64,000 bases of DNA from Escherichia phage saus132. The stretch lies in the sequence record NC_047884.1; one strand, written 5' to 3'. Positions 30,684 to 45,675 of the stretch are shown one piece after another. Numbering within the stretch: position 1 is the stretch's first letter; each line of letters opens with the position of its first letter. Position numbers and translations under genes: made by a program. The notes beneath the pieces are model-generated. The model saw nothing but the letters and a program-made list of their open reading frames with translations. It was not told the DNA's origin and did no database searches.

Positions 30684-31063
30684 AATTGAATACTATTAGG
30701 GGATGATCAGTCCTCCATTTGGCCGTCTAAGGTACCAAAGTTAGTCATTCTGCGCACAGGTTTTTCTCCTGATTCTTTCTTGCGAATGCTCTCTAGTAAT
30801 ACTCAATTGTGGCGGCTCTCCGAAACTCTTCTACTCTAGCCTTAGCAGCTTACTCCCGAACGCATGTCGGGAAAGTCTTACTAAGAACATCAAATAGCAC
30901 CGTTACACTTTGAGCCATTGAATATCAAGAAGCAGAAGGACTTGAACCTTCATGAGATAGACCATTTATCTCAGCCTCGTTTTCGGGTATCTTATGAGGA
31001 GTGGATGTTCCCCTTACGCCCTTTAGGAAGCCCCGTCTACCGATTCCGGCATACTTCAAGATT

Positions 31064-31153
31064 TGGCAGAAGATAATGGAGTCGAACCATCACCGTATCA
31101 CTACAGCGGGCCGGTTTTCAAGACCGGTTACGTACCACTACGTCCTATCTTCT
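31064..31153 (-). tRNA. tRNA-Ser (anticodon UGA), long variable arm
   Basis: 90 nt; anticodon arm CCGGT-CTTGAAA-ACCGG; about 19-nt variable arm; perfect acceptor. Confidence 0.65.
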
Positions 31154-31380
31154 AGTATTTGTTCTACTTCTTTTCGAAGATCTTCTGGATTATCATGATA
31201 GGTTGTTTGCCATACATAAATAACTCCAGCATCACATGCTTTATCAAATATTTCTCGCTCAGGAAGTTTCATGCCCATTGCGTACTTGATATGAAACTCT
31301 AAAGCTTGCTTACTAGGGAATGTATGACGCAAGAAAAACTTATCATTAGCTAAATCCAACATCATAATCTTGACTTTCAT
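31138..31380 (-). CDS. hypothetical protein
   Basis: 80-aa ORF; 3' end overlaps tRNA-Ser 5' end. Confidence 0.45.
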   Translation of the reverse strand: MKVKIMMLDLANDKFFLRHTFPSKQALEFHIKYAMGMKLPEREIFDKACDAGVIYVWQTTYHDNPEDLRKEVEQILEDRT

Positions 31381-31401
31381 TTATATTCCCTATTAGTTGT
31401 T

Positions 31402-31477
31402 TGGTGGAAGAAGAGAGATTCGAACTCTCAAGCCTGCTTTAACAAGTCAGCCACTTTCCAAGCGGTTTTCGTCACCT
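31402..31477 (-). tRNA. tRNA-like remnant (canonical 3' half, 5' half does not pair)
   Basis: CCA, acceptor 3' strand and T-arm GAGAG-TTCGAAT-CTCTC present; Asn-like loop TTGTTAA with weak stem; no complementary 5' acceptor strand. Confidence 0.3.
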
Positions 31478-31653
31478 AATCGATTTGCTCTTCCGTAGAT
31501 CTCAGGATTAAATCATAAACTTCATTAGCGGATACTGGAAGTATGAGATTATACATCTTTTGGTCATACCTCTGACCATACTCTATAAACACATACTCTT
31601 TAGTCAATGTATTAACAGCTAACCAGATATCAGTTATAGGAGTTTTCATCATG
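31476..31653 (-). CDS. hypothetical small protein (59 aa)
   Basis: ATG ORF overlapping the 5' side of the tRNA-like element. Confidence 0.3.
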
Positions 31654-31668
31654 AGTTAATCCAATGTT

Positions 31669-31749
31669 TGGTAGGGATGGAGGGACTCGAACCCACACCC
31701 GAAGACTAGAACCTAAATCTAGCGCGTCTGCCAATTTCGCCACATCCCC
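31669..31749 (-). tRNA. tRNA-Leu (anticodon UAG)
   Basis: anticodon arm CTAGA-TTTAGGT-TCTAG; 9-nt variable region; CCA encoded. Confidence 0.5.
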
Positions 31750-31756
31750 ATTTTAT

Positions 31757-31975
31757 TTAGTTAGAAATAAATAGTAACCCTGCAACAATGGAACCTATGC
31801 CACTGAATACCATTATCAGCATAGCTTCTAAGCTGATAAAGCGGACGTTATATGGAGCGCCCCAAGAATAATCAGTAAAGAAAGTTTTCTTTTCTTTAGC
31901 TAAATCTTTAATAGTTCTAAAATAGATAGCTAGTGCTAAAGCTGCAAGAACTACAGAGGCTGCTAAGAATACCAT
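31757..31975 (-). CDS. small membrane protein
   Basis: 72 aa, two TM segments. Confidence 0.45.
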   Translation of the reverse strand: MVFLAASVVLAALALAIYFRTIKDLAKEKKTFFTDYSWGAPYNVRFISLEAMLIMVFSGIGSIVAGLLFISN

Positions 31976-31994
31976 ATTATTTCCTTAATTTGTT

Positions 31995-32070
31995 TGGTGG
32001 AGTCACTCAGAATTGAACTGAGTTCCACTGCTTGCAAGGCAGTAAGTTTAACCAAATAACCTATGACCCC
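31995..32070 (-). tRNA. tRNA-Ala (anticodon UGC)
   Basis: G3-U70 wobble in acceptor (GGGGTCA/TGACTCC); anticodon arm ACTGC-CTTGCAA-GCAGT; CCA encoded. Confidence 0.65.
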
Positions 32071-32075
32071 GAATT

Positions 32076-32154
32076 TGGTGGAGAATAACGGAATCGAACC
32101 GTTCTGATGTCCTCGGTGCAAGCGAGGTGTCCACTCCATGCAGACCCATTCCCC
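32076..32154 (-). tRNA. tRNA-Ala (anticodon UGC), second divergent copy
   Basis: G3-U70 in acceptor (GGGGAAT/ATTCTCC); anticodon arm CCTCG-CTTGCAC-CGAGG; 7-nt variable loop. Confidence 0.55.
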
Positions 32155-32509
32155 AAAATCTTTAAGTTTACTAAGGCTATTAGCTCGGTGTGCGTATTAC
32201 CCTCAGACATTATCCAGTAGAGGATAACCGCTCTTCACAAACCCGATACACTATTCAGTTGCCGCTGAATCTAGTGGACTAATCTAGAACTTCTCCCGAG
32301 TCGTAGGGATCGTGCTTTTTGGCAGCCAGTCCTAGGTCGAGCTAATACCTTAGTGAACTAAATTGATGGATATCAGACTAATTTTGCTACGGCGTTTATC
32401 CTGAGGATCTCTTTTTCGGTAGCTCTGCTAGTGTAGACGTCATACACCTGATATCTAGGCAGCTATTTTCACATCAATTTATATAAATATTATAACAAGA
32501 AATTAAGCA

Positions 32510-32863
32510 TTAAGCAAGTACATTTTTAGCGATTTCTTGTAGTTCCTTAACGTCGCTAACGAAAAGGTAATCAGAGCTTCCAGAGTGCATACTCTGCATA
32601 ACCACACCACCATCCGGTGCATCTTCTTTCAAAGTAATACCTAACCAGAACTTGGCAAAACTAGGTGTTACCTCACCTTGACTTGCCTTGAACACATCGC
32701 CTTCTGTGATCTCTTGACCAGTGGAGAGTCCCATGTATGGTACGTTCAGATCAATATCTTTGTAGAACTCAGCTAGATCTTGCTCGAAATCCCAACCTTT
32801 AGAGATAGCGAACTCCATTGTTACATGACCGAAATAGCCTTGAACCTTGCTTGATAATTGCAT
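32510..32863 (-). CDS. hypothetical protein
   Basis: start moved to ATG after AAGGA RBS (track start is TTG). Confidence 0.5.
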   Translation of the reverse strand: MQLSSKVQGYFGHVTMEFAISKGWDFEQDLAEFYKDIDLNVPYMGLSTGQEITEGDVFKASQGEVTPSFAKFWLGITLKEDAPDGGVVMQSMHSGSSDYLFVSDVKELQEIAKNVLA

Positions 32864-32888
32864 TTGCAATTCCTTATTTTGAGTTAAT

Positions 32889-32962
32889 TGGTACTCGGTG
32901 ATAGAATCGAACTATCGCAACCGCCGTGTAAAGACGGGGTTCTCCCATTAAACTAACCGAGC
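32889..32962 (-). tRNA. tRNA-Val (anticodon UAC)
   Basis: T-arm GATAG-TTCGATT-CTATC; anticodon loop TTTACAC. Confidence 0.55.
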
Positions 32963-33095
32963 AAAAGACGTCCTATAATATAGGCTTCAACTACAAATTC
33001 ACAGAAACCTGCTAAAAACATACCTATTGTAAAATCGGCAGAGAATACATAGGAATCTTTTATTTTCTGCTTCATTAAGTAAAACCAGATAGTCA

Positions 33096-33413
33096 TTAAA
33101 ATCTCTCCATTCTAAAGCCAATGAAGTAAGGTGCATTACATGGAACATGCTTAAGATCTTTAAGAGTAATTTTACGTCCTAAGCGTCGTTCCATACAAGT
33201 GAAACATAGAACAATATCTTTGGGCTGCTCTTTTCTTATCTGATCCCAGACCCAATCTTCAACCATACACATTTCATGGTATTGTTCACAGTCTCGACAA
33301 TAGTGACACTGATGTTCTGGTACTTTTTGATTTTTAATACACAGTTCAGTAAAGCGTTTTCCGGCTCTGCCAGACATTTCTGATATTGTTTCTAGAACTT
33401 TGTTAATATTCAT
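33096..33413 (-). CDS. Cys-rich zinc-finger-like protein
   Basis: 105 aa; HQCHYCRDCEQYHEMC and CFTC motifs. Confidence 0.5.
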   Translation of the reverse strand: MNINKVLETISEMSGRAGKRFTELCIKNQKVPEHQCHYCRDCEQYHEMCMVEDWVWDQIRKEQPKDIVLCFTCMERRLGRKITLKDLKHVPCNAPYFIGFRMERF

Positions 33414-33430
33414 AACAAATTCCTTTAAAT

Positions 33431-33509
33431 TGGTAGACCGCCTGGGACTCGAACCCAGAACCTTCCGGTTAAAAGCCGGGTGCTGCTAAACCAATTGAGC
33501 TAGCGATCT
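33431..33509 (-). tRNA. tRNA-Lys (anticodon UUU)
   Basis: T-arm CTGGG-TTCGAGT-CCCAG; anticodon loop CTTTTAA. Confidence 0.55.
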
Positions 33510-33511
33510 AT

Positions 33512-33676
33512 TTAGTACATATATACTTCTTTAATAGAGTAGACTTTTAAGTAAGGATGATTAATACCAAATTCCGCCATCACTTCGTTTTCATCTTTAC
33601 CGTAATGGGCTAGTGGATACTTCTTACGATCTTTGCTAGAACGTAGATCACTTACTTTTAAGCGAAATAATTTCAT
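33512..33676 (-). CDS. hypothetical small protein (54 aa)
   Basis: ATG ORF between two tRNA genes. Confidence 0.3.
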   Translation of the reverse strand: MKLFRLKVSDLRSSKDRKKYPLAHYGKDENEVMAEFGINHPYLKVYSIKEVYMY

Positions 33677-33697
33677 TTCGAAATCCTTCTATTAAAT

Positions 33698-33775
33698 TGG
33701 AAGCGGGTGTAGGAATCGAACCTACCTCTTTCTAGCTTATGAGACTAGCGATCTCTACCAGAGATCTAACCCGCA
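33698..33775 (-). tRNA. tRNA-Met-type (anticodon CAU), mismatched 1-72 pair
   Basis: anticodon arm CTAGT-CTCATAA-GCTAG; T-loop TTCGATT; U1/U72 mismatch. Confidence 0.55.
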
Positions 33776-33781
33776 ATTGTT

Positions 33782-33859
33782 TGGTCTCCGTGGGAGGATT
33801 TGAACCCCCGACCCTACCGCCCCAAACGGAACGCTCTGGCCAAACTGAGCTACACGGAG
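33782..33859 (-). tRNA. tRNA-Pro (anticodon UGG)
   Basis: perfect acceptor CTCCGTG/CACGGAG; anticodon loop TTTGGGG; D-stem GCTC/GAGC. Confidence 0.6.
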
Positions 33860-34336
33860 AATATTATCTTTTTAACCATAGTAAGGTTATACCTAACATG
33901 GTAAATCCAGTACCCAGCCCAATACTTTTTTCTATGAAATTGAAGGTATCAGTATTGACTGCGGTAATTAGTATAGGTATAGACCATAGTACCATGAATA
34001 CTTGAGCTATCTTATATTTCACTTTGCTTTCCTTCTTAACATTTTATAAGATATATTATACAGAGAATTAAGCAAAGTAGCAAATGAATTTTTAATAAAT
34101 TTACTTATTGCGTAGGCCACCTGGAGGGTTCAAGCCCCACGGCTGACAAAGAAGTTTGCGAGACTTCTCTTAAACGCCAGAATAGACCCGCCGATCTATC
34201 GGAACCTACTCAATAAGTAAACTTTCATTTACTTACACCTACCTGGTCGGGAGGATTTTCAGCGACTAGAACCGGCCGGAAACTCATCGCCTTGTTTATC
34301 TAGGAGTCCGTTCTCTAGGAAGCAGAAACCTAAATT

Positions 34337-34410
34337 TGGTGCGGTCGGAGGGAATCGAACCCTCAACTTCTGGTTGGCAACCAAAAATTATACCTTTTAA
34401 CTACGAACGC
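34337..34410 (-). tRNA. tRNA-Gly (anticodon GCC)
   Basis: T-arm GAGGG-TTCGATT-CCCTC; anticodon arm TTTGG-TTGCCAA-CCAGA. Confidence 0.6.
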
Positions 34411-34608
34411 ATAATAAGTCAATCTAGGCAGGACTTGAACCTGCTATCACTTGTGCGGATTTACGAGAACCATTCTTTCACTCGAATCGAACGAGCTTCT
34501 ACCCTCGGCAAGCTGGTGTCCCCTCTCCACCACGCTAGAATGTTTGATAAAGAGTCCGGTGTAGCAATCCGTAAGGGTGCACCTACTGTAGCCTTTACTC
34601 TTTAAATT

Positions 34609-34684
34609 TGGTACACCCACTAGGACTTGAACCTAGAACCCTCCGCTTAAGAGGCGGTAGCTCTAACCATTGAGCTATGGATGT
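34609..34684 (-). tRNA. tRNA-Lys (anticodon CUU)
   Basis: T-arm CTAGG-TTCAAGT-CCTAG; anticodon loop CTCTTAA; D-stem GCTC/GAGC. Confidence 0.55.
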
Positions 34685-34690
34685 ATTATT

Positions 34691-34767
34691 TGGCGCGACC
34701 GATGGGATTCGAACCCACATTCTCTCCCGTGACAGGGGAGTACCATTACCAAGCCAGCCCCGATCGC
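34691..34767 (-). tRNA. tRNA-Asp (anticodon GUC)
   Basis: anticodon arm CTCCC-CTGTCAC-GGGAG; discriminator G; CCA encoded. Confidence 0.6.
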
Positions 34768-34776
34768 ATAATTTGT

Positions 34777-34962
34777 TTACTCAGCTTTGAGTTTTTCGAT
34801 AGCTTCCTCAACCTCTTTTAGAGCTTCACGACGTGCATTCTGTTGCTGCATATCTTGAATTAATGTCAGTTTTTGGTTTTCAATTTCTTGATCCCAAACC
34901 TTAATATTATTAATCAGACTATCACGATCAGCTTCTAGTCGAGCAATTGCACGAGTTGTCAT
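34777..34962 (-). CDS. hypothetical coiled-coil protein
   Basis: 61-aa ORF. Confidence 0.4.
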   Translation of the reverse strand: MTTRAIARLEADRDSLINNIKVWDQEIENQKLTLIQDMQQQNARREALKEVEEAIEKLKAE

Positions 34963-35065
34963 ATCTATTTCCTCAGTTGTTAATGAAAAATGGTATCTGT
35001 GACTGAATTCGATATCAGCAATGATAGCTGGTTGGCTACCGGTTTACTTAACTCTACACAGAATT

Positions 35066-35143
35066 TGGCGGTTCCTGCTGGATTCGAACCAGCAACCCTC
35101 AACTTAACAAGATGCCGCTCTAACCAATTAGAGCTAAGGAACC
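35066..35143 (-). tRNA. tRNA-Asn (anticodon GUU), weak anticodon stem
   Basis: perfect acceptor GGTTCCT/AGGAACC; T-arm GCTGG-TTCGAAT-CCAGC; loop TTGTTAA; two stem mismatches. Confidence 0.5.
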
Positions 35144-35638
35144 ATATAAGTCAGAACTAGAGTTAATACGTTCTAGATATTTACTAAGATCCCTAGAATT
35201 TATACTAAACCACTCATGTTCTTTTAAGTCTTTGAAATATTGGTGAATTTGTTTTTCACCTTTTCGTTTGTCAAACCAAAACGACCAATGCTCTAGTTTA
35301 TAGTCCCTATAAGGACTATAAGTTTGATACTGAGCTAATCTCTCTTTTGGATTTTGACTCATACCTATTTTATACTGGTTTTTCCATGCAGGATTACTGA
35401 TACAGTATACAAAACCTTCAGAAATAGGAAGCTTATTTTCCTGTTTAAACTTTATAAAGGAAAGTGCGGCAAGTTTCCTCGAATACAGAGTATTTGTATT
35501 CTTTTTGGTATTACCACTGGTTCCTGAAAGATTTATATACTCTTCCATAAATCTTTGGATTAGTTCTGTGGTTATGTAGAAAGGCTCATTAGTAACAATG
35601 CCTTTCTCTACCAAGCTGTCAAAAACTTTTGTATGCAC
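35120..35638 (-). CDS. T5orf172/GIY-YIG-like domain protein
   Basis: 172 aa; GFVYCISNP...YKIGMSQNPKERLAQY resembles the T5orf172 core. Confidence 0.5.
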   Translation of the reverse strand: MHTKVFDSLVEKGIVTNEPFYITTELIQRFMEEYINLSGTSGNTKKNTNTLYSRKLAALSFIKFKQENKLPISEGFVYCISNPAWKNQYKIGMSQNPKERLAQYQTYSPYRDYKLEHWSFWFDKRKGEKQIHQYFKDLKEHEWFSINSRDLSKYLERINSSSDLYGSLALIG

Positions 35639-35659
35639 TACTTCTTTCCTTTAGTAATT

Positions 35660-35734
35660 TGGAGCATCCTGTTGGAATTGAACCAACCTAGACGATTTTG
35701 CAGACCGTCACCTAAGCCACTCGGACAAGGATGC
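35660..35734 (-). tRNA. tRNA-Cys (anticodon GCA)
   Basis: perfect acceptor GCATCCT/AGGATGC; anticodon loop CTGCAAA; T-loop TTCAATT. Confidence 0.65.
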
Positions 35735-35737
35735 AAA

Positions 35738-36010
35738 TTAATCTACTTCACACATATCATCATAGCCACAAGTTGGGCATTCCCAATGACATTCGTCATG
35801 CTCACCGCATTGAGCACATTCATAAATCTTTGGCTTTTCAACTTCTTCTAGATTAATAAATTCTAGATCATCGAAGTTACCAATGGATCTGGCATAGTAA
35901 CCATCGCCTGCGTCATAACCTGATTTACCACACTCACACATCTTAAACTCACGCAGATGTGTGAAGATATGTTCAGAGCCACAACACTTAAATTTAACTA
36001 ACTTTTTCAT
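35738..36010 (-). CDS. zinc-ribbon protein
   Basis: 90 aa; several CxxC pairs. Confidence 0.5.
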   Translation of the reverse strand: MKKLVKFKCCGSEHIFTHLREFKMCECGKSGYDAGDGYYARSIGNFDDLEFINLEEVEKPKIYECAQCGEHDECHWECPTCGYDDMCEVD

Positions 36011-36059
36011 TTGCTTCTCCAGTTCAATTTATGTAATAATTATACAGAACTTTAAGCGG

Positions 36060-36347
36060 TTAAGCAACTACATTTTTCAGAAATATGATGCCTTTCTTTT
36101 TCTTCTTATACTTCCACGTTAACGGGTTCTGTCGATTATGAACGCTTGAGATCTTTGTCTCGTCAAAGTTCTTCAATACCATGTAATCACAGGCCAACTG
36201 TTCTAGTGGAATGTGATCTCCGTCAAAAGCGTAAACGTAAGGCTGTTGACTGGCACGATAATGATAGACTTTGTTAATTCTGCGTTTCAGTGACTTATCC
36301 GCACAGTAAATAAAGAAGTTTTCAGGATGCATCAGCATCTCCTTCAA
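36060..36347 (-). CDS. hypothetical protein
   Basis: 95-aa ORF; track start is TTG, a likelier ATG lies 9 nt in. Confidence 0.45.
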   Translation of the reverse strand: MKEMLMHPENFFIYCADKSLKRRINKVYHYRASQQPYVYAFDGDHIPLEQLACDYMVLKNFDETKISSVHNRQNPLTWKYKKKKKGIIFLKNVVA

Positions 36348-36349
36348 AT

Positions 36350-36424
36350 TGGTGCACCCTGTTCGAATTGAACGAACCTCTCAAGCTCTTCAGGCAAGCG
36401 CTAATCCATCTCAGCTAAAGGTGC
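36350..36424 (-). tRNA. tRNA-Phe (anticodon GAA), anticodon stem with two U-U mismatches
   Basis: T-arm GTTCG-TTCAATT-CGAAC; loop CTGAAGA; CCA encoded. Confidence 0.45.
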
Positions 36425-36430
36425 AAATAT

Positions 36431-36507
36431 TGGCAAACCTACTAGGACTCGAACCTAGACCGTACGGTTTTGGAGACCGACATGCTGTCCAGTAACACTC
36501 TAGGAAT
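36431..36507 (-). tRNA. tRNA-Trp (anticodon CCA)
   Basis: T-arm CTAGG-TTCGAGT-CCTAG; anticodon arm TCGGT-CTCCAAA-ACCGT; two U-U mismatches in acceptor. Confidence 0.5.
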
Positions 36508-36515
36508 GCAGAAAT

Positions 36516-36592
36516 TGGCGTCCTGTGCGGGGATCGAACCCGCAAATCCTACCTTGAAAGGGTAGTGACTTTACCAGTTTGTCTAACAGGAC
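36516..36592 (-). tRNA. tRNA-Glu (anticodon UUC)
   Basis: perfect acceptor; T-arm GCGGG-TTCGATC-CCCGC; anticodon arm CTACC-CTTTCAA-GGTAG. Confidence 0.65.
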
Positions 36593-36599
36593 TTAAATT

Positions 36600-36690
36600 T
36601 GGTGTTGGATGATGGAGTCGAACCACCCGAGACCCTTCCGAGTCGGCAGATTTACAGTCTACTTCGCTACCTCTACGATACTAATCCAAC
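36600..36690 (-). tRNA. tRNA-Tyr (anticodon GUA), long variable arm
   Basis: 91 nt; perfect acceptor GTTGGAT/ATCCAAC; anticodon loop CTGTAAA; about 18-nt variable arm. Confidence 0.6.
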
Positions 36691-36879
36691 ATATTTGAAT
36701 GAAAAGTAAGTCGGTTAAACTCAAGGTGGAATATTTCAGGATTTCCTGACTTTACCCCTAAAAGCAACTCGCTTAATTACTTCTCATTCAGATATGTTTC
36801 CAAATTAGATAAATATTATATCAAGTTTTAAGGCACTGAGCAAGTCAAATTTTAAAGAACTTGCTCAGTGCTGTATCAG

Positions 36880-37679: not shown

Positions 37680-37687
37680 ATGTAATC

Positions 37688-39028: not shown

Positions 39029-39213
39029 GCCAGAGAAATCATACAGTGGAACTGTTAACCATCCATGTGGAGAGAGCCAACAGTGATACTTATCACTATC
39101 AAAGCCCCTAGATTAAAGATGTTGTTTTAACTCGTCAACAGTCATATATGACTCCTATCTATAATTTATAGAATATATTATATAGAAAATTTCGGCATTA
39201 AGCAAGTGAAATT

Positions 39214-39510: not shown

Positions 39511-39540
39511 ATTTGATTCCTCTCTCAAATTTATAAATAT

Positions 39541-39569
39541 ATTATACAGAAATTTTCTATATTAAGCAA
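39541..39569 (-). promoter_or_regulatory. T5-type early promoter
   Basis: TATAAT 39541-39546, TTGCTT 39564-39569, 17-bp spacer, conserved leader. Confidence 0.6.
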
Positions 39570-39616
39570 GTGAAAATTTCTGTATAATAGCCCTCTAAGC
39601 GAGGGCTATAACTACT

Positions 39617-40309
39617 TTATTTGTTAACGCGTACAAAGTATCCTTTATAGGCTCCCATAATAGAGTTACCTAAGAATACTAGCCACATTGCTAGGATTGC
39701 ATAAGATGCACCTGTAGATTGAGCAGTTACAAGCCAAATGTATACAGTACCAATGTTAATAGCAATCCAGATCAGCCATTGTTCAGCATATTGTTTGACC
39801 ATAAGCCACATAGCAATCACACTACCAACCGCAGTAAATGCGTCAAGCATTGGGAATGGATCAGCGGTAGTAGCAAGGAAGCTGCCGTAACCTAAAGTAG
39901 CTACTGCTAGAATCCCTAGAGTCAGCAGAGCTTGGGCTTTAGTCAGAACCTTAGTTGGAACATCTGGCAGATTACTTGGCTTATTTTTATGCCATAAGTA
40001 CATTCCATAAAACTGCATAGGAACGTAGTATAGCAGGTTTAGTGCAGCGTTACCATAAAGATCTGCGTTTAAAGCTGTAATACCATATGTAAGAACACCC
40101 ACTAAGCCCCAAATATAGTTGGAAACACGTCCTTTTGCAACCAGAATAACACAAACCACATTGGTTATTGCAGTAGCCCAATCTAGAGCTGTACCATTAT
40201 AGTTTGCTAAACTAATGAAGACAACCGCTATGAACAGCCACAGATATTCCAGAGGTTTCCAGTTTTTAAAGTCATTTACGAGATAGTTAGTCATATTAAA
40301 ACTCTCCAA
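39617..40309 (-). CDS. pnuC: nicotinamide riboside transporter PnuC-like
   Basis: 230 aa polytopic membrane protein; SNYIWGLVGVLTYG and WHKN region resemble PnuC. Confidence 0.6.
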   Translation of the reverse strand: MESFNMTNYLVNDFKNWKPLEYLWLFIAVVFISLANYNGTALDWATAITNVVCVILVAKGRVSNYIWGLVGVLTYGITALNADLYGNAALNLLYYVPMQFYGMYLWHKNKPSNLPDVPTKVLTKAQALLTLGILAVATLGYGSFLATTADPFPMLDAFTAVGSVIAMWLMVKQYAEQWLIWIAINIGTVYIWLVTAQSTGASYAILAMWLVFLGNSIMGAYKGYFVRVNK

Positions 40310-41351
40310 CGTTAAAGTGATGAATCAGCCAGTCTACTGCGTTTACTGCTTCGTCCATACGAACTTTGTAGTCCGGGGAGTCGATGTAAACAGTACGCCC
40401 TTCAGGGAACTGATTTGGAAATTCTTTCTTCATCTGCTCGAACAGTTCAGAAGTAATTGAACGATCGGAGTTAATACGTAAACCATCATCTACCCACTTG
40501 ACAGTAGGCGCTAGAACAATTACTAAATCGTAATGTTCTTCTTTTGCAATTGCTGTAACCACAGGGTTCTTACTATGTTCATAAAGTCTGTGGTAGAACT
40601 CAGTAATAAAAGCATTTGTATCCACAAACATGATCTTATTTGCAGTACGTTCTGCTTCAAACTCTAGCTCTTTGTGTCTGAACGCAATTTTACTATAGTC
40701 TTCGCTGGTAAGCAGATTTTCGTTACCAACTAGATCAACTTCACAATACGTTCGGCCATATTCTTCTACCCACGAAGTGTTGTATAGCTTCGCAAGGTAT
40801 TTTGTTAAAGTAGTCTTTCCTGAGCTTTCAGTCCCAATGATTACAACCTTACGCACGTAATCTTTACGAACTACGCTAGGAAGAAACTCCCAATACTTCA
40901 TAAGATCATTACGAATCATTGTAGCTGAGATTGGAACACGAGTCCGATCAGAATCTACAATATAATGACCAAACTTCGGCAGATATTTCTTATATTCTGC
41001 ATCATAGTCTAGTTCGCTAGAGAAAATGGTGATCTCAGGCAAATGTCCGTAATTTTCATTAAGGATTCTAGCATATTCCGGCCAACCATTCGGATATTCA
41101 GGAATATCATCTTCAATAGTGTACTCTACCGAAATGTGCTCAATATCCGCGTAAGTTTGTTCTAACCAACGAAGTCGATTCTTTAACTGTAATACTTCCT
41201 GATCACGTGTGTTCTGCTTATCCAACCAACGATTATCATGACTAACTACAACAATAACTCGTTCACACATAGTTGCTGCTGTGTTTATTAGGTTAATATG
41301 ACCACGCGTTAATGGTGCGAACTTACCAATTACTAGACCAGTCTTAATCAT
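40296..41351 (-). CDS. nadR: NadR-like bifunctional NMN adenylyltransferase / ribosylnicotinamide kinase
   Basis: nucleotidyltransferase motif GKFAPLTRGH; Walker A GTESSGKTTL in C-terminal half; start set at ATG after GAGAGG RBS. Confidence 0.65.
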   Translation of the reverse strand: MIKTGLVIGKFAPLTRGHINLINTAATMCERVIVVVSHDNRWLDKQNTRDQEVLQLKNRLRWLEQTYADIEHISVEYTIEDDIPEYPNGWPEYARILNENYGHLPEITIFSSELDYDAEYKKYLPKFGHYIVDSDRTRVPISATMIRNDLMKYWEFLPSVVRKDYVRKVVIIGTESSGKTTLTKYLAKLYNTSWVEEYGRTYCEVDLVGNENLLTSEDYSKIAFRHKELEFEAERTANKIMFVDTNAFITEFYHRLYEHSKNPVVTAIAKEEHYDLVIVLAPTVKWVDDGLRINSDRSITSELFEQMKKEFPNQFPEGRTVYIDSPDYKVRMDEAVNAVDWLIHHFNVGEF

Positions 41352-41381
41352 ATTTGATTCCTCTCTCAAATTTATAAATAT

Positions 41382-41410
41382 ATTATACAGAGAATTTAGC
41401 ATTCAAGCAA
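41382..41410 (-). promoter_or_regulatory. T5-type early promoter
   Basis: TATAAT 41382-41387, TTGCTT 41405-41410, 17-bp spacer. Confidence 0.6.
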
Positions 41411-41623
41411 TCGAATTTTTTAACTTTTTAGTGGAAAAAATCTCAAGGCATTTAGTGGTAGCACGTTGTTGCTACAATAATAGTATATGATTCTAAAGAA
41501 TTAAAGAATTAAATACTAAAGACCTTAGTTGAATAACTTATGGGCTTTTCTTTTGCCTTAAATACAGAAAAGCCCGCGCTCTCGGAGGAAACGCGGGCTT
41601 ATTTCGAAGATTACGTGTAACTA

Positions 41624-42568
41624 TTACTTATTACGCATATCCATAATCATCTGGCCATCATAACCAGTACCTACAACAGTCTGAGGAACGCCACCCTGAT
41701 ATTTTTCAGCGCGTTTCATATCAACTTCCAGCTGTTTCCAGCGAATCATCTCTGGAGTGATGGTACGCTGCAGAGCGGTGTTAGCTTCAGCTTCTTTCTT
41801 AGCCGCATACAGTTTAGCATCTGCGTCACGTTCGTTAGCTACTGCCATATTTTCACGAGCAGAACGATCAGCCTCAGCTTGCTTAACTTTCTGCTGTGCT
41901 TCTTGTTCAACACGAGCTAGTTCAGCTTTTGCAGCGTTAACTTGTTCTTCACGAACTTTGGTGTTTTGTACCTGTTCCATGATTACCGGTGGCAGAGTAA
42001 TATCCTGAAGGAATACTTGCTTAACGGTGTAGCCATAAGGACGCGCATACTCTTCTACTTCTTGCTGAATAGCGGTTTGCAGTTGAGCCTGAATCTTAGC
42101 GTCGAACAGATCTTGTGCTTTTGGTACAGACTTACCAAACTCACGAATCGTAGACAGCATCTTCTCTTCAACGTACTTGTTCAGAGCTTGATCCTGAGTA
42201 CCTGCGTTAACACGGTTCATAGGAGCTTTAGCACCATCAAACTGCAACATAACGGTAATGTCAACTGTAGACTTAAACTTATCCTGGCTAGGAACCTGAA
42301 GTTTATCCAGTTTCATAGAAATATCTTTCGTACTAAAAGTATCAAAAGAGGCGAATGGGTTGACAATATGGAACCCCGGCAATACAGGATTAGGACTAAC
42401 TTTACCCAGGAAAGTCTGAGTTTTAACCGTACCGTCCTGAACAACTGTATAGGAATTGAGAGCCAGAATAAGAGCGCCAAGACCAACTACAGCACCAACA
42501 CCCCAACGTTTAATAGTACGAATTACTTTTTGATCGGAAGTCAGTTCTTTAGTGTTTTTAGTAAACAT
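41624..42568 (-). CDS. SPFH/band-7 (prohibitin/HflC-like) membrane protein
   Basis: 314 aa; N-terminal TM; FLQDITLPPVIMEQV motif and long coiled coil. Confidence 0.55.
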   Translation of the reverse strand: MFTKNTKELTSDQKVIRTIKRWGVGAVVGLGALILALNSYTVVQDGTVKTQTFLGKVSPNPVLPGFHIVNPFASFDTFSTKDISMKLDKLQVPSQDKFKSTVDITVMLQFDGAKAPMNRVNAGTQDQALNKYVEEKMLSTIREFGKSVPKAQDLFDAKIQAQLQTAIQQEVEEYARPYGYTVKQVFLQDITLPPVIMEQVQNTKVREEQVNAAKAELARVEQEAQQKVKQAEADRSARENMAVANERDADAKLYAAKKEAEANTALQRTITPEMIRWKQLEVDMKRAEKYQGGVPQTVVGTGYDGQMIMDMRNK

Positions 42569-42579
42569 ATATTTCCTTA

Positions 42580-42780
42580 TTATTTAGAAGAGTTAGCTAC
42601 TACAGTTACTTTAGTTGCAGAAATAAACAGGCTAGCATCCACAGCAAATTCAGGAGCTTTGATATCTCCGTTATGAAATATGACTATACCGGAGACTACT
42701 TCAAATGCTAGCGCTGTAACATCGGTGGTATTTACTTGTGAATGTTCACCTACTACTTTTACTATATATCGTGTTTTCAC
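42580..42780 (-). CDS. hypothetical small protein
   Basis: 66 aa, GTG start with AGGAAA RBS, downstream of SPFH gene. Confidence 0.4.
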   Translation of the reverse strand: MKTRYIVKVVGEHSQVNTTDVTALAFEVVSGIVIFHNGDIKAPEFAVDASLFISATKVTVVANSSK

Positions 42781-42806
42781 TTTATTTTCCTAGCAGTTAA
42801 TAAAAT

Positions 42807-42881
42807 TGGCCGAGGTGACAGGATTCGAACCTGCATAAAGGAATTTAGAAGACTCCTGCCTATCCCTTAGACTACACCCCG
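42807..42881 (-). tRNA. tRNA-Arg (anticodon UCU)
   Basis: T-arm GCAGG-TTCGAAT-CCTGT; anticodon arm GGAGT-CTTCTAA-ATTCC; CCA encoded. Confidence 0.6.
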
Positions 42882-43777
42882 TTTAGGTATTTTTAAGAAC
42901 TCTTATAAAAGCTCTTAAAGATACCCGACGGTAGGTAGGGTCAGCCCCCTCAGATTAAGCTCTGCAGCCCTTCCGTCAGACAATATCTTCCAGTTTAAGT
43001 CAGGGTGACTTTGTGGTTATGTTCTCCGTATGTGAAGAACTCGGTTAGGCTTAGGTCATGACTCCCAGCCTACTGCTGCCGCTCAACAGGAATTATCGCG
43101 AATTACCTGTACTATTGGGCACCATTAGTGACATCTCTCATGTCAGCGTTTCCCACTCTCATATTCACGCGGTCTGTTAGAATCGCACCTCCGATTTTCG
43201 ATGCGAAGCTGGATGCCTAGTCTCAGGTTAAACGGGGCACACACTAGGCAGTGATCCCGAGTTCCGAGTTTGGTTGAGGCCGTCAGGTTTCCTCGTGGTT
43301 TAGCTGTTTCGATTCTAACCTAATACTGATCAGGTGGCGTACCTCCTGAACTGTCATAGTATGTACTCCAGCAGCGAATGCTTATCCGGTATAAGCCCGA
43401 GTTATCTGATTCTTTCCGACCGCAGGATTCGAACCTGCATCTTCCACCAGTTACGGTTTGATATTACCGTTTATACTAGGACGGCAGTGTTATCACATAA
43501 GTCAGTTCGACACCCCACTAACATAAACTAGAGAAGAGTTTACGAGATTTCGGGACAGCTCCCGAGTTTTCCGCAGATTTTCAGTTCCCTATCAATAGCA
43601 ATAAGCGTTAGCTCGTAGCCTCTCTCAGAGTACTTACTAGTCTCCAACTCACCGACTCTATTCAGTGGAATAGCTATCCTAGTAGGAATCACTAAACTCA
43701 CTCAGCGTAATCGGCTCGCTGTTCTCTAATTTATGAATCTATTATACAGAATTTTGAGGCGTTTAGCAAATCAATTT

Positions 43778-44221
43778 TTAATTAAATTCGCCAGCAACCT
43801 GAGCAGCAATGCCACCGTCGTAACGACCAGGAAACTCTTCCTTAATCGCTTTCATCAGCATACCTTTTGTAATCCCAGGGTTCAACTTAACTAATTCTGC
43901 AAAGTATTTGCGAATCTCAGAATCAGATAACTGAGGCGGCAGATACTGTTGTAGCCATTTGTTCAGTATATACTCATACTGAGCAGACTGCAAGCTATAA
44001 TTATCAAGGTCTTGACCGTGAAGTTTAGCTTTCGTCTGATTAATGCTTTTCAGTTGAGCTTTTAGATAAGATACAAACTGTTCAGAAGTAATGAAGTCTT
44101 TATCAACACGCTGAAGATCTCCGATTATGGTCTGGTAGCTTTTAGCTACTTCTTTATCAGAACCATCAACCTTAGATTCCTGCAAAGCCCTACGCAAAAC
44201 ATCTAGAATATTCTCTTCCAT
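43778..44221 (-). CDS. GatB/YqeY-domain-like protein
   Basis: 147 aa; C-terminal MKAIKEEFPGRYDGGIAAQV resembles YqeY tail. Confidence 0.4.
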   Translation of the reverse strand: MEENILDVLRRALQESKVDGSDKEVAKSYQTIIGDLQRVDKDFITSEQFVSYLKAQLKSINQTKAKLHGQDLDNYSLQSAQYEYILNKWLQQYLPPQLSDSEIRKYFAELVKLNPGITKGMLMKAIKEEFPGRYDGGIAAQVAGEFN

Positions 44222-44391
44222 TATTTAATTCCCAGTGCTTGGTTAAAAGATTGTTCTGTCATAACTGCCGAGACTTTAGCGAAATCAAACTTCTTAGGGT
44301 TTGTAGTAATTTCAGCAACGTTAGTAGTTTTAACTGTTTTCGTAGTACGGATACCACGAGTATTAACACCAATAATTACAACTGATTTCAT
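44221..44391 (-). CDS. hypothetical small protein (56 aa)
   Basis: ATG ORF; TAATG overlap with downstream gene. Confidence 0.3.
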   Translation of the reverse strand: MKSVVIIGVNTRGIRTTKTVKTTNVAEITTNPKKFDFAKVSAVMTEQSFNQALGIK

Positions 44392-44459
44392 ATTTCGCTT
44401 CCTCTCATTAATTTATGAAAGTATTATACAGAAATTTAAGGCTTTAAGCAATCGAATTT

Positions 44460-44909
44460 TTAAGTTTTCTTAACCACAGGCTTGTAGAATGTATGGCCTT
44501 GAATCTTCGTTGTTTTCTTAAACTTCTTTGTCCAGTACGGTTTATCTTTACCACTATGGAAGTATAACGCTCCATGTGTTGGATCTTGTGGTAAATCAAC
44601 GTAGTATATCACTCTAGCTAAATTCTTAGCAACTTGCCAAGCCTCATCGGTTTTATCAACTTTTGGTCTCCTGGCCACCCAAGAGAACTGGTTAGACTGA
44701 TATACTACTTTACAGTAAGAATCAGGAAAAGTACCAGAGTTAACACGGTTTTTAGTAACCTGTGCAACTGCGATCATTCCTTTAGTGCCCTCACCTCGTG
44801 CTTCGAAGTAGATATTTTTTGCAATGCAATCAATCTGCTTTGAGTCGTAGGTCGCATGACTATTGAAGCTATAGGTTAGGGCAGCTATTAAAAGCAAAGC
44901 TGCCTTCAT
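44460..44909 (-). CDS. cell-wall hydrolase (SleB/Hydrolase_2-like) with signal peptide
   Basis: NIYFEARGE...GMIAVAQVTKNRV motif; start set to ATG after GGAG RBS. Confidence 0.5.
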   Translation of the reverse strand: MKAALLLIAALTYSFNSHATYDSKQIDCIAKNIYFEARGEGTKGMIAVAQVTKNRVNSGTFPDSYCKVVYQSNQFSWVARRPKVDKTDEAWQVAKNLARVIYYVDLPQDPTHGALYFHSGKDKPYWTKKFKKTTKIQGHTFYKPVVKKT

Positions 44910-44914
44910 TTTAT

Positions 44915-45232
44915 TTACTCCGGCCAATCGTACTCAATACGATTAGGGCTTTCTTGATACCCTTCGTCTAAGAGATCATTACGCATGGTCTCTTTAGCTA
45001 CTGGGTTCGAGGTTACTAGTACCACTTTCTTGGGTCTCTGACCAAATTCTAGGAGTAAACGAAGAATTTGATAACCTTCCATACCATCTACAGCCAGATC
45101 GTTATCCATATAAACGAAATGACCTGTGGTATCGGTTTTATTCAGAAACTCAACAGCGGCTTCGGGGGTTCGAATGATAATGTCCATTCCATGAAGGTTA
45201 CGCACATCATCAATCAGAATATGAAAAATCAT
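44915..45232 (-). CDS. hypothetical protein
   Basis: 105-aa ORF. Confidence 0.45.
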   Translation of the reverse strand: MIFHILIDDVRNLHGMDIIIRTPEAAVEFLNKTDTTGHFVYMDNDLAVDGMEGYQILRLLLEFGQRPKKVVLVTSNPVAKETMRNDLLDEGYQESPNRIEYDWPE

Positions 45233-45675
45233 AATAGCCTCGTCTCATCAATTTAAAAATATATTATACAGAAAACTAAACTAATTAGCAAATACATTTT
45301 TAAATTGAGAGACTAGTAAACCGATAAACAGCCTAGAGGCGCCACAGGCCATATCTTATGAGCCATGTACCTTTGATCTAGGGTTTGAATCATCAACGAA
45401 TACTTTGCATCTTTTAGCTTTAGAAGGTTAGAAGTTTGAGTGCTTTTAACTTTTCAGCTTTCATACTTGAGCGTTGATCTTTGAAGTTGTGTTGGTACTA
45501 CCAACGACCTTTTGTTTTTACGTGTCAGATTAAATGTCTGATGTAATAAACATAATCTCCAATAGATTATACTTTATAGTATGGTCAGCGGTCTTATTTA
45601 ACCTCGTATTTCAACCGCTGCTGCGAGGTAAGATGCTTGGGCTTTCGTCTACCGATTTACTAGTCTTTTAAATTA

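What the first reader, a model, noticed from the sequence alone, without database searches (positions are those of the whole stretch)
30690..45675. Additional ORF-free gaps that may encode stable RNAs
Gaps at 30690-31060, 32155-32470, 34085-34335 and 45290-45675 lack credible ORFs on either strand and lie in the direction of minus-strand transcription. The first contains a T-arm-like hairpin (30935-30951). Older T5 literature mentions stable RNAs of unknown function in the tRNA region.
Basis: partly seen in the sequence, partly recalled or inferred. Interest (0 to 1): 0.45.

Follow-up and report, generated by a model that had tools for sequence, protein, structure and literature searches.

The report
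Structured RNA genes between phage tRNAs
The four "empty" gaps in this T5-like phage's tRNA region hold promoters and genes for folded non-coding RNAs: three match stable RNAs long annotated in phage T5, and the fourth holds an unannotated ~355-nt doubly pseudoknotted RNA that is conserved in distant phages.

Summary
The window is the first 64 kb of T5-like phage chee130_1 (MF431736.1). All four gaps are real and ORF-poor. They lie on the strand from which the 28 tRNAs are transcribed.

- **Gaps 1-3** correspond to misc_RNA features of the T5 reference record AY543070.
- Gap 1 holds RNA1, RNAI and a non-homologous hairpin cassette in the RNAIII slot.
  - Gap 2 holds promoter P13b, a 5' leader hairpin and RNA2H.
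  - Gap 3 holds RNAIV, promoter P13a and a 127-nt insert.
- **RNA1's fold** is proven by covariation (16 compensatory pairs). It is a class-II tRNA body whose anticodon loop is replaced by a ~45-nt arm with a conserved ACAUCCAC loop.
- **Gap 4** is not annotated as RNA anywhere I looked. It holds a 355-nt RNA (45666->45310).
  - It has a 19-bp closing helix, an H-type pseudoknot followed by ACCA, and a second long-range pseudoknot.
  - Across 8 lineages, 98% of cells pair and 32 pairs are compensatory.
  - G.U outnumbers A.C by 32 to 1, and the folding z-score is -5.8.
  - It follows a DIP1984-like gene in 12 of 12 lineages sampled and has no Rfam match.

Functions remain unknown. It is mostly a rediscovery, plus one new RNA family.

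The parts
30927..31058 (-). RNA1, a non-decoding tRNA-like RNA. It has an acceptor stem (31057-31052 with 30934-30929), a Leu-type D arm, an anticodon stem, a ~45-nt extension (31026->30979) with the conserved loop ACAUCCAC (31008->31001), a long variable arm, and a T arm (30951->30935).
   Evidence: 80.7% identical to T5 rna1. On 19 distinct sequences, 36 pairs give 95.3% paired cells against 40-50% for slid controls. 16 pairs are compensatory and 0/500 shuffles reach this. RNAalifold gives the same helices. ARAGORN calls it a tRNA only when a 41-nt 'intron' is allowed.
30810..30916 (-). RNAI, a 107-nt rod-like RNA with a 5-bp terminal stem and an encoded GCCA 3' end.
   Evidence: 90.7% identical to T5 rnaI. 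Consensus fold of 29 pairs, 8 with compensatory change. A homologue is present in the Pectobacterium phage DU_PP_V.
30684..30809 (-). Hairpin cassette in the slot that T5 RNAIII occupies. It is closed by a ~17-bp stem (CAAUUGAGUAUUACUAG / CUAAUAGUAUUCAAUUG). It is not homologous to RNAIII.
   Evidence: No BLAST match to T5 rnaIII. Found only in close relatives. MFE -25.9 kcal/mol, z = -1.4.
32489..32517 (-). Promoter P13b (-35 TTGCTT at 32517-32512, -10 TATAAT at 32494-32489).
   Evidence: Read directly from the sequence. Matches the T5 P13b position and the repeated promoter module.
32360..32480 (-). 5' leader hairpin that starts at about the P13b transcription start. Its closing stems are AAAUUGAUG/CAUCAAUUU and GAUAUCAG/CUGAUAUC. 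T5 lacks it.
   Evidence: z = -1.5. Only 3 distinct sequences are available, so covariation cannot be tested.
32175..32347 (-). RNA2H, with closing helix UAUUAGCUCG/CGAGCUAAUA. The first 113 nt are 96.5% identical to T5. The 3' interior is replaced but the closing helix is kept.
34210..34336 (-). 127-nt insert that travels with tRNA-Gly(GCC). T5 lacks it. It is predicted to form three hairpins.
   Evidence: z = -1.4. Its nature is unresolved.
34109..34209 (-). RNAIV, a 101-nt three-way structure closed by GUAGG/CCUAC.
   Evidence: 94% identical to T5 rnaIV. On 17 distinct sequences there are 35 pairs: 3 compensatory, 7 changed on one side, and 5 of 595 cells broken.
34055..34083 (-). Promoter P13a (TTGCTA, 17-nt spacer, TATAAT), upstream of the unannotated 52-aa T5.066 homologue.
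45310..45666 (-). New ~355-nt structured RNA.
- P1: 45665-45647 with 45329-45311.
- PK2: 45634-45629 with apical loop 45358-45353.
- S1: 45629-45624 with 45606-45601.
- S2: 45620-45614 with 45592-45586, followed by ACCA at 45585-45582.
- Hairpins H3 to H6.
- AAAG[N]U(U) repeat region: 45488-45386.
- P7a: 45382-45378 with 45336-45332.
- P7b and P7c, the latter with a 12-nt loop UCAUAAGAUAUG (45361-45350).
45263..45291 (-). Promoter for gene 0082 (TTGCTA, 17-nt spacer, TATAAT).
   Evidence: T5 annotates a promoter at the same place.
45676..46314 (-). Gene 0083 (T5.085 family, phrog_1491, DIP1984-like fold). It is always immediately upstream of the gap-4 RNA.

Best explanation
The gaps are filled with two things: T5-type sigma-70 early promoters at their edges, and genes for structured non-coding RNAs transcribed on the same strand as the tRNAs.

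**Shown**
- Gap 1 encodes RNA1, a class-II tRNA body in which the 7-nt anticodon loop is replaced by a ~45-nt arm capped by the conserved loop ACAUCCAC.
- Gap 1 also encodes RNAI, a rod that ends in an encoded CCA, and a long hairpin cassette.
- Gap 2 encodes a 5' leader hairpin and RNA2H. Gap 3 encodes RNAIV.
- Gap 4 encodes a 355-nt RNA with a 19-bp closing helix, an H-type pseudoknot directly followed by ACCA, and a second pseudoknot between a 5' strand and the apical loop of the 3' domain.
- Every element is closed by a terminal helix.

**Inferred**
- The elements are cut out of polycistronic early transcripts by the host tRNA-processing enzymes (RNase P, RNase E, 3' exonucleases). Their paired ends then make them stable.
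- Function, about 0.35: RNA1, RNA2 and RNA3 are non-decoding tRNA mimics. They would occupy tRNA-binding factors such as host tRNA-targeting defence nucleases or processing enzymes.
- Function, about 0.3: the gap-4 RNA is a trans-acting RNA. Its pseudoknot plus ACCA would imitate a tRNA acceptor arm, and it would act in the tRNA or RNA-repair context of its neighbours (cREC, YqeY, tRNA genes).
For: **Homology**
- The gaps align to the T5 and phage 5 misc_RNA features.

**RNA1**
- 95.3% of cells pair, against 40-50% for slid controls.
- 16 pairs are compensatory and 0/500 shuffles reach this. RNAalifold agrees independently.
- The element is conserved into Sugarlandvirus and Hongcheonvirus.

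**Other small RNAs**
- RNAI, RNAIV and RNA2 show compensatory pairs.

**Promoters**
-.

**Gap-4 RNA**
- It is more conserved than the flanking CDSs.
- MAFFT plus RNAalifold finds 20 compensatory pairs.
- On 39 pairs including the pseudoknot, 93.4% of cells pair against 34-49% slid, with 19 compensatory pairs and 0/500 shuffles.
- On 46 pairs in 10 sequences, 98.2% pair against 35-47% shifted, with 32 compensatory pairs.
- Four further lineages give 179/182 canonical pairs.
- PK2 changes completely yet stays complementary: AUCUUA/UAAGAU, AUCUCA/UGGGAU, AUCUUG/CAAGAU, GUAUCGGC/GCCGGUAC, UCACGCA/UGCGUGA.
- G.U outnumbers A.C by 32 to 1, which marks the transcribed strand.
- Folding z-score is -5.8.
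- The module boundary is marked by a homing-endonuclease insertion right after P1, and by tRNA genes 3-7 nt after P1 in three lineages.
Against: - No transcript data were available here. 'Stable RNA' for gaps 1-3 rests on the depositors' annotation. For gap 4 nothing shows transcription or accumulation.
- Thermodynamic z-scores of the small elements are modest, -1 to -1.5.
- RNA2H, the leader hairpin, the RNAIII-slot cassette and the 127-nt insert have too little sequence diversity for a covariation test.
- In my structure-anchored counts, the strands in divergent lineages were partly located by their complementarity. This favours pairing, although positions are fixed by conserved anchors and the slid controls are low.
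- No function is demonstrated. The RNA1 loop has no enriched complementary sites in the window.
- The neighbouring protein is acidic, pI about 6. This does not favour a simple RNA-protein complex.
Confidence: 0.82

Rival explanations
1. The elements are structured spacers or processing by-products. Their helices exist only to punctuate the polycistronic tRNA transcripts, insulate neighbouring tRNAs from misfolding and guide RNase P and RNase E. The excised pieces persist because they are hairpins, and they have no function of their own.
For: - Every element is closed by a terminal helix that brings together the ends of neighbouring tRNA-like units.
- The RNAIII slot and the 3' half of RNA2H are swapped for unrelated sequence while the closing stem is kept.
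- From my own recollection of Glukhov et al. 2018, cited in PMC11464382: T5 tRNA-region deletion mutants are reported to be viable.
Against: - Interior loops and helices are conserved or covary across genera. This applies to the RNA1 loop ACAUCCAC, the gap-4 12-nt loop, and PK2 and S1/S2.
- Gap-4 blocks are more conserved than the coding genes.
- The gap-4 RNA is kept in genomes where no tRNA is adjacent.
Confidence: 0.3
2. The small elements are decaying tRNA pseudogenes and scars of cassette exchange driven by homing endonucleases, and they evolve neutrally.
For: - RNA1, RNA2 and RNA3 are tRNA-derived.
- The region is a mosaic with HNH genes and indels.
- The apparent 'anticodon' differs between phages: aaa here against taa in JLBYU40.
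Against: Compensatory changes keep all RNA1 helices, including the non-tRNA extension, across three genera. Neutral decay would break pairs.
Confidence: 0.08
3. The gaps encode small proteins that the annotation missed.
For: Some records annotate short 'hypothetical proteins' over these regions. ORFs of 34-52 aa exist.
Against: - These ORFs are not conserved between lineages.
- Substitutions are pair-preserving rather than codon-patterned.
- The three differences in the 14-codon ORF of gap 4 between T5 and the window are all non-synonymous (sequences).
Confidence: 0.03
4. Gap 4 acts in cis or as DNA. It could be a 3'-UTR or 5'-UTR regulator of the neighbouring genes, or a replication origin or primer-RNA region whose AAAG[N]TT repeats bind a protein or unwind.
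For: - It always follows the same gene.
- In DU_PP_V and My1 it ends 20 nt before the hydrolase start codon.
- The central region is an A-rich repeat array in all lineages.
- T5 origins are unmapped.
Against: - The downstream neighbour varies: promoter plus cREC gene, hydrolase, or tRNAs.
- G.U outnumbers A.C by 32 to 1, which shows selection on one RNA strand.
- The two pseudoknots and the closing helix are typical of an autonomous folded RNA.
- A primer-RNA role is not excluded by any of this.
Confidence: 0.15

Closest known systems
T5 stable RNAs RNA1, RNAI, RNAIII, RNA2H, RNAIV (misc_RNA features of AY543070 and AJ604531)
   Same: Same positions between the same tRNA genes, and 81-96% sequence identity for RNA1, RNAI, RNA2H (first 113 nt) and RNAIV. 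They carry the same depositor labels 'stable RNA' or 'tRNA-like ... unknown functions'.
   Different: - The RNAIII sequence is absent and is replaced by another hairpin.
- The RNA2H 3' interior is replaced.
- An extra leader hairpin and a 127-nt insert are present.
- Gap 4 has no counterpart feature in those records.
Canonical tRNA-Leu, or a tRNA with an intron
   Same: RNA1 has the acceptor stem, U8, a class-II D arm (GCCGGAAUCGGUAGACGG), a 5-bp anticodon stem, a long variable arm and a T arm with a UUCAAGU loop. One GenBank record calls the homologue tRNA-Leu(taa), 134 nt.
   Different: - There is no 7-nt anticodon loop and no conserved anticodon.
- The 41-45-nt insert itself covaries as a helix.
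- It has no Rfam tRNA match.
- It has no encoded CCA, and the discriminator position is U.
Phage T4 stable RNAs 'species 1 and 2' (rnaC/rnaD) in the T4 tRNA cluster. This comparison is from my own knowledge and was not tested here.
   Same: They are small stable RNAs of unknown function, co-transcribed and co-processed with phage tRNAs.
   Different: No sequence comparison was possible with these tools, so homology is unknown.
Pseudoknotted tRNA-like structures of plant RNA viruses (TYMV type). This comparison is from my own knowledge.
   Same: In the gap-4 RNA, S2 (5-8 bp) stacked on S1 (5-6 bp) gives an arm of about 12 bp. It is followed directly by NCCA in 10 of 13 sequences, like a pseudoknotted acceptor arm.
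   Different: - The ACCA is internal, not 3'-terminal, unless the RNA is cleaved there.
- There is no anticodon-arm analogue.
- Loop L2 is 7 nt in the window lineage.
- This is a resemblance only.
tmRNA (standard or permuted)
   Same: Similar size, a long helix that pairs the two ends, and a 5' pseudoknot.
   Different: - ARAGORN finds no tmRNA and there is no Rfam tmRNA hit in the element.
- There is no T arm or acceptor stem outside P1.
- There is no conserved tag reading frame.
Large phage-associated RNAs found next to tRNA genes (ROOL, GOLLD)
   Same: It is a large, ornate, pseudoknotted RNA of unknown function encoded in phage genomes. In three lineages it is directly adjacent to tRNA genes.
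   Different: It gives no Rfam match to those or any other family, and it is smaller (310-360 nt).

Membership tests
T5 RNA1 (tRNA-like stable RNA) | Sequence homology to T5 rna1 and position between tRNA-Ser(UGA) and RNAI / tRNA-His | tested here: met
   80.7% identity over 144 nt, with the same neighbours.
T5 RNA1 (tRNA-like stable RNA) | Accumulates as a stable RNA in infected cells | not testable with these tools
   Only the depositors' annotation is available.
T5 RNAI | 107-nt sequence homologous to T5 rnaI, ending in an encoded CCA | tested here: met
   90.7% identity over 107 nt. The 3' end is GAGAGCCGCCA.
T5 RNAIII | Sequence homology to T5 rnaIII | tested here: not met
   No BLAST match. 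Only the position and a long closing stem are shared.
T5 RNA2H | Sequence homology and the closing helix UAUUAGCUCG/CGAGCUAAUA | tested here: met
   The first 113 of 172 nt are 96.5% identical. The closing helix is kept and the 3' interior differs.
T5 RNAIV | Sequence homology to T5 rnaIV, upstream of promoter P13a | tested here: met
   94% identity over 101 nt. The promoter lies at 34083-34055.
Canonical decoding tRNA | Cloverleaf with a 7-nt anticodon loop and a conserved anticodon | tested here: not met
   The loop is replaced by a covarying arm of about 45 nt. The 'anticodon' is aaa here and taa in JLBYU40.
Canonical decoding tRNA | Reaches the Rfam tRNA gathering score | tested here: not met
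   No RF00005 hit in 30684-31063, even at E<=10.
Canonical decoding tRNA | Aminoacylation and CCA end | not testable with these tools
   CCA is not encoded in RNA1, whose 3' trailer is UUGAUAUU. Charging cannot be tested here.
tmRNA | tRNA-like domain formed by the two ends, plus a tag reading frame | tested here: not met
   ARAGORN -m finds none. No Rfam tmRNA hit in gap 4 or its homologues.
Any Rfam 15 family (RNase P RNA, 6S, group I/II introns, ROOL, GOLLD, riboswitches and others) for the gap-4 RNA | Covariance-model match | tested here: not met
   No match at E<=10 in the window. No match at E<=1 in eight homologous loci.
TYMV-type tRNA-like structure | Pseudoknotted acceptor arm ending in a 3'-terminal (A)CCA that is a substrate for tRNA enzymes | tested here: inconclusive
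   A pseudoknot followed by NCCA is present in 10 of 13 sequences. However, the CCA is internal. Cleavage and enzyme recognition cannot be tested here.
Intrinsic terminator or plain UTR | Only a GC-rich hairpin with a U tract, or no conserved structure | tested here: not met
   The terminator scan gives no excess over shuffles. The only 'terminator-like' hit in gap 1 is the RNA1 T arm. Multi-helix covariation is present.

The most novel reading that the evidence does not exclude
The gap-4 element founds a previously undescribed family of ~310-360-nt phage RNAs.

Its architecture:
- a long closing helix;
- an H-type pseudoknot followed by NCCA, which mimics an acceptor arm;
- a second long-range pseudoknot;
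- an A-rich repeat core.

It is genetically coupled to a DIP1984-like protein. It occurs in Tequintavirus, Epseptimavirus, Hongcheonvirus, Myunavirus and several uncultured large phages, and in one Solibacillus genome.

It may be a tRNA-mimicking RNA or a ribonucleoprotein that acts in tRNA or RNA-repair conflicts with the host.
Probability: 0.5. Interest if true: 0.8.

Novelty: new member of a known kind. Interest (0 to 1): 0.55.

Why it matters
T5's "stable RNAs of unknown function" have stayed unexplained since the 1980s, and most modern T5-like genome annotations leave them blank. This work adds three things.

- **Testable models.** It gives explicit, covariation-backed structures. RNA1 is a tRNA body that carries an elongated arm with an invariant loop.
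- **Cross-genus conservation.** It shows that the family extends across genera.
- **A new RNA.** It uncovers a larger, doubly pseudoknotted RNA just outside the classical "tRNA region". That RNA is conserved more strongly than its neighbouring genes and is widespread in virulent phages.

Phage tRNAs are now known to counter host tRNA-cleaving defences such as PARIS and retron Eco7. Non-decoding tRNA mimics and an RNA with an acceptor-arm-like pseudoknot, sitting next to predicted RNA-end-processing genes, are therefore obvious candidates for new counter-defence or RNA-metabolism functions.

Tried and rejected
- **Rfam.** Searches at gathering and permissive thresholds on the window and on eight homologous loci found nothing in any gap.
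- **ARAGORN.** It finds no tmRNA. It finds a tRNA in gap 1 only when introns are allowed, and in RNA2 and RNAX only with relaxed scores.
- **Literature.** Five full-text searches found no paper that describes the T5 stable RNAs or a T5 transcriptome. The 2023 catalogue of viral structured RNAs does not mention these phages in its text. The 1976 paper on T5 replication origins is not held.
- **Antisense idea for the RNA1 loop.** The complement GTGGATGT is not enriched in the window, with 3 sites against 1.1 expected, one of them RNA1 itself.
- **Ribonucleoprotein idea for gene 0083.**
  - There is no Pfam, NCBIfam or PDB sequence match.
  - The confident AlphaFold model matches only 3kdq, a DIP1984-family protein of unknown function.
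  - The protein is acidic, so I found no positive support.
  - The afdb50 fold library was unavailable.
- **Local self-pairing of the 12-nt loop.** RNAalifold predicted it. I rejected it in favour of PK2 because it breaks in L119, L120 and My1, whereas PK2 covaries.
- **Pattern scans of public collections.** The metagenome scan returned mostly chance hits, 21 of 27. One hit in the viral-contig scan (L082) was also a chance match in a coding region.

Full report
**Identity and observation**

The window is identical to the first 64 kb of the T5-like phage chee130_1 (MF431736.1, Epseptimavirus), with the same coordinates. ARAGORN finds 28 tRNA genes, all on the minus strand, between 29041 and 42881.

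The record annotates nothing in 30684-31063, 32155-32509, 33860-34336 or 45233-45675. Only ORFs of 52 aa or fewer occur there. That includes the hairpin GAAGG-UUCAAGU-CCUUC at 30951->30935.

**What is already known**

The T5 reference record AY543070 and the phage 5 tRNA-region record AJ604531 come from the same laboratory. They carry these misc_RNA features:
- rna1 ("tRNA-like stable RNA with unknown functions");
- rnaI, rnaIII, rna2H, rnaIV, rna2, rna3 and rnaX.

BLAST maps them onto the window as follows:

| T5 feature | Window position (minus strand) | Identity |
|---|---|---|
| rna1 | 31060->30917 | 80.7% |
| rnaI | 30916->30810 | 90.7% |
| rna2H (first 113 nt) | 32347->32235 | 96.5% |
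| rnaIV | 34209->34109 | 94% |
| rna2 | 34542->34418 | 89.6% |
| rna3 | 35063->34991 | 97% |
| rnaX | patches in 42882-43540 | 79.5-88.9% |
| rnaIII | no match | none |

Gaps 1-3 are therefore a rediscovery of annotated T5 RNAs. Most modern T5-like annotations, including this record, leave them blank. I could find no paper on them in the held library.

**Gap 1**

I aligned RNA1 homologues from 19 distinct sequences. They include Klebsiella phage Spivey and Pectobacterium phage DU_PP_V, which belong to other genera of the family.

My tRNA-like model has these parts:
- an acceptor stem of 6 pairs;
- a D arm;
- a 5-bp anticodon stem;
- two extra helices, P2 and P3;
- a long variable arm;
- a T arm.

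The model has 36 pairs. Of the cells, 95.3% pair, against 40-50% when the 3' partner is slid. Sixteen pairs have changes on both sides, and 0 of 500 shuffles reach this. RNAalifold finds the same helices independently.

The 7-nt anticodon loop is replaced by an arm of about 45 nt, capped by the loop ACAUCCAC. This loop is invariant except for one G in T5.

ARAGORN accepts RNA1 only as a "tRNA with a 41-nt intron" and reads the anticodon as aaa. The JLBYU40 record calls its homologue tRNA-Leu(taa). So there is no conserved anticodon, and RNA1 is a non-decoding tRNA mimic. It encodes no CCA.

RNAI follows after four nucleotides. It is a rod with a 5-bp terminal stem and an encoded GCCA, and it is conserved into DU_PP_V with compensatory changes in the terminal stem.

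The remaining 126 nt (30809->30684) are unrelated to T5 RNAIII. They also form a long closing stem that starts at the same CAAUUGA.

**Gaps 2 and 3**

Gap 2 holds, in order:
- promoter P13b, with -35 at 32517-32512 and -10 at 32494-32489;
- a 121-nt hairpin whose closing stem includes the first transcribed bases (32480->32360), which T5 lacks;
- RNA2H (32347->32175). Its 3' interior differs from T5 but its 10-bp closing helix is kept.

Gap 3 holds, in order:
- a 127-nt insert that travels with tRNA-Gly(GCC);
- RNAIV (34209->34109), with 35 pairs, 3 compensatory, 7 changed on one side, and 5 of 595 cells broken;
- promoter P13a at 34083-34055.

A promoter module of about 60 nt recurs at the edges of gaps 2, 3 and 4 and at other places.

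**Gap 4: conservation**

The T5 records annotate only a promoter here, and AJ604531 stops before this region.

The 443 nt are 92-100% identical in 435 Tequintavirus and Epseptimavirus records. In a 26-sequence alignment, the blocks 45683->45564 and 45413->45294 have 5 and 9 variable columns per 120. The flanking coding sequences have 5-16 per 30.

**Gap 4: homologues**

Homologues exist at the same genomic position in:
- DU_PP_V (62% identity, E = 2e-14);
- My1;
- a 147-kb metagenomic phage contig;
- eight further lineages, reached through the neighbouring protein.

**Gap 4: structure and covariation**

The common architecture is:
- a closing helix P1 of 14-22 bp whose sequence differs completely between lineages;
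- an H-type pseudoknot (S1/S2) with an A-rich loop 3;
- hairpins H3 to H6;
- an A-rich array of AAAG[N]U(U) repeats;
- a 3' domain P7a/b/c with a 12-nt apical loop;
- a second pseudoknot, PK2, between the strand just 5' of S1 and that apical loop.

The covariation tests gave these results.
- MAFFT plus RNAalifold on six sequences recovers P1, S1 and P7, with 20 compensatory pairs.
- The pair-count tool on 39 pairs, including the S1/S2 pseudoknot, gives 93.4% paired against 34-49% slid. Nineteen pairs are compensatory and 0 of 500 shuffles reach this.
- A structure-anchored count on 10 sequences from 8 lineages gives 98.2% paired over 46 pairs, against 35-47% shifted. Thirty-two pairs are compensatory.
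- Four more lineages give 179 of 182 canonical pairs, with the strands in the same order.

PK2 changes completely yet stays complementary:
- AUCUUA/UAAGAU;
- AUCUCA/UGGGAU;
- AUCUUG/CAAGAU;
- GUAUCGGC/GCCGGUAC;
- UCACGCA/UGCGUGA.

G.U pairs outnumber A.C mismatches by 32 to 1. So the selection acts on an RNA of the transcribed strand, not on duplex DNA.

The window sequence folds at -99.4 kcal/mol with z = -5.8.

**Gap 4: boundaries and database status**

Two facts mark the module boundary:
- In phage bastian, a homing-endonuclease cassette is inserted exactly after the last P1 base and leaves the RNA intact.
- In three lineages a tRNA gene starts 3-7 nt after P1.

No Rfam family matches the element in any lineage, and ARAGORN finds no tmRNA.

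**Gap 4: context**

In all 12 lineages sampled, the RNA directly follows a homologue of gene 0083 (T5.085, phrog_1491). What lies downstream varies:
- a promoter followed by cREC_REC, Hydrolase_2, DUF7616 and YqeY genes;
- the hydrolase gene directly;
- tRNA genes.

Sugarlandvirus lacks both the gene and the RNA.

Gene 0083 is labelled "tail fiber protein", but that label is doubtful:
- It has no Pfam hit.
- Its confident AlphaFold model (pLDDT 90.8) matches only the DIP1984-family structure 3kdq, whose function is unknown.
- It is acidic.

The cREC domain of gene 0082 is predicted to resolve 2',3'-cyclic phosphate RNA ends (PMC9503650).

The 3' strand of S2 is followed directly by NCCA in 10 of 13 sequences. 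The stacked S2+S1 arm of about 12 bp plus ACCA therefore resembles a pseudoknotted tRNA acceptor arm. This is a lead from my own knowledge of plant-virus tRNA-like structures, not a tested membership.

**Mechanism**

Shown:
- the homology to annotated T5 RNAs;
- the conserved folds;
- the promoters;
- the module boundaries;
- the gene-RNA linkage.

Inferred:
- The RNAs are transcribed within early polycistronic transcripts.
- They are excised by host tRNA-processing enzymes and are stable because their ends are paired.

Function is unknown. My preferred readings are these:
- RNA1, RNA2 and RNA3 are non-decoding tRNA mimics that engage tRNA-binding factors (about 0.35).
- The gap-4 RNA is a trans-acting, acceptor-arm-mimicking RNA tied to tRNA or RNA-repair biology (about 0.3).

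The main rival is that the small elements are structured spacers or processing by-products (about 0.3). For gap 4, a cis-regulatory or origin/primer role is a further rival (about 0.15). Missed small proteins and neutral pseudogene decay are unlikely.

**Verdict**

Three of the four gaps are already known, though neglected. Gap 4 is a new, well-supported RNA family.

Noticed in passing
window 34418-34542 (minus strand): T5 RNA2 homologue. It is tRNA-like, 125 nt long, with an acceptor stem, a T arm and 7 compensatory pairs, and it is conserved into DU_PP_V. The record's plus-strand CDS P1301_0063 (34453-34605) lies on top of it and is probably spurious.
   Followed up: partly
window 34991-35063 (minus strand): T5 RNA3 homologue (97% identity). 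It is a degenerate 73-nt tRNA-like RNA that ends in ACCA, next to tRNA-Asn.
   Followed up: partly
window 42882-43777 (minus strand): Counterpart of T5 'RNAX', a 719-nt stable RNA of unknown function, lying upstream of tRNA-Arg. It is only patchily conserved with T5. It contains a tRNA-like unit at 43414-43485 (Rfam tRNA 29.3 bits, just at threshold) that also occurs in Spivey, DU_PP_V ('tRNA-OTHER') and My1. The region folds with z = -2.6.
   Followed up: partly
window 35120-35638 (minus strand): A 172-aa ORF, 94% identical in DNA to the T5.069 region, is not annotated in MF431736. This 'gap' is a missed gene, not RNA.
   Followed up: no
window 33864-34022 (minus strand): A 52-aa ORF homologous to T5.066 (a two-TM protein, annotated in phage Seafire) is missing from this record's annotation.
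   Followed up: no
window 30049-30124, 31402-31494, 32076-32154: Three tRNAs in the record are weak. tRNA-Gly and the second tRNA-Ser are not found by default ARAGORN. The second 'tRNA-Ala' fails the Rfam tRNA threshold. These may be further tRNA-like RNAs rather than decoding tRNAs.
   Followed up: no
window 44915-45232 (gene 0082): This 'hypothetical protein' is a cREC_REC domain (PF20274, E = 1e-14), predicted to process cyclic-phosphate RNA ends. The cluster cREC, Hydrolase_2, DUF7616 and YqeY is conserved downstream of the gap-4 RNA in several lineages.
   Followed up: partly
window 45676-46314 (gene 0083): The annotation 'tail fiber protein' is doubtful. The gene lies in the early region, its model is an all-helical bundle, and its best match is the DIP1984-family protein 3kdq of unknown function.
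   Followed up: yes
L126 (phage bastian) 515-1051; equivalent to window 45311/45312: A 537-bp homing-endonuclease cassette is inserted exactly at the 3' edge of the gap-4 RNA and leaves the RNA 100% intact.
   Followed up: yes
window 32472-32517, 34023-34095, 45243-45304, 39160-39213, 41355-41420, 43720-43777: A conserved T5 early-promoter module of about 60 nt recurs at the edges of many intergenic gaps. It includes the transcribed AAATTGATG motif.
   Followed up: partly
L118 1110-1230: A weak YrlA (Y RNA-like) covariance-model hit (25.4 bits, below the gathering score of 69) lies between two tRNA genes of an uncultured large phage. That phage also carries the gap-4-type RNA.
   Followed up: no
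L122 (Solibacillus silvestris assembly GCA_051967575.1, contig JBQCJW010000003.1): The gene-plus-RNA pair also occurs on a 228-kb contig of a Firmicute genome, next to oppositely oriented genes. I did not resolve whether this is a prophage or a cellular copy.
   Followed up: no
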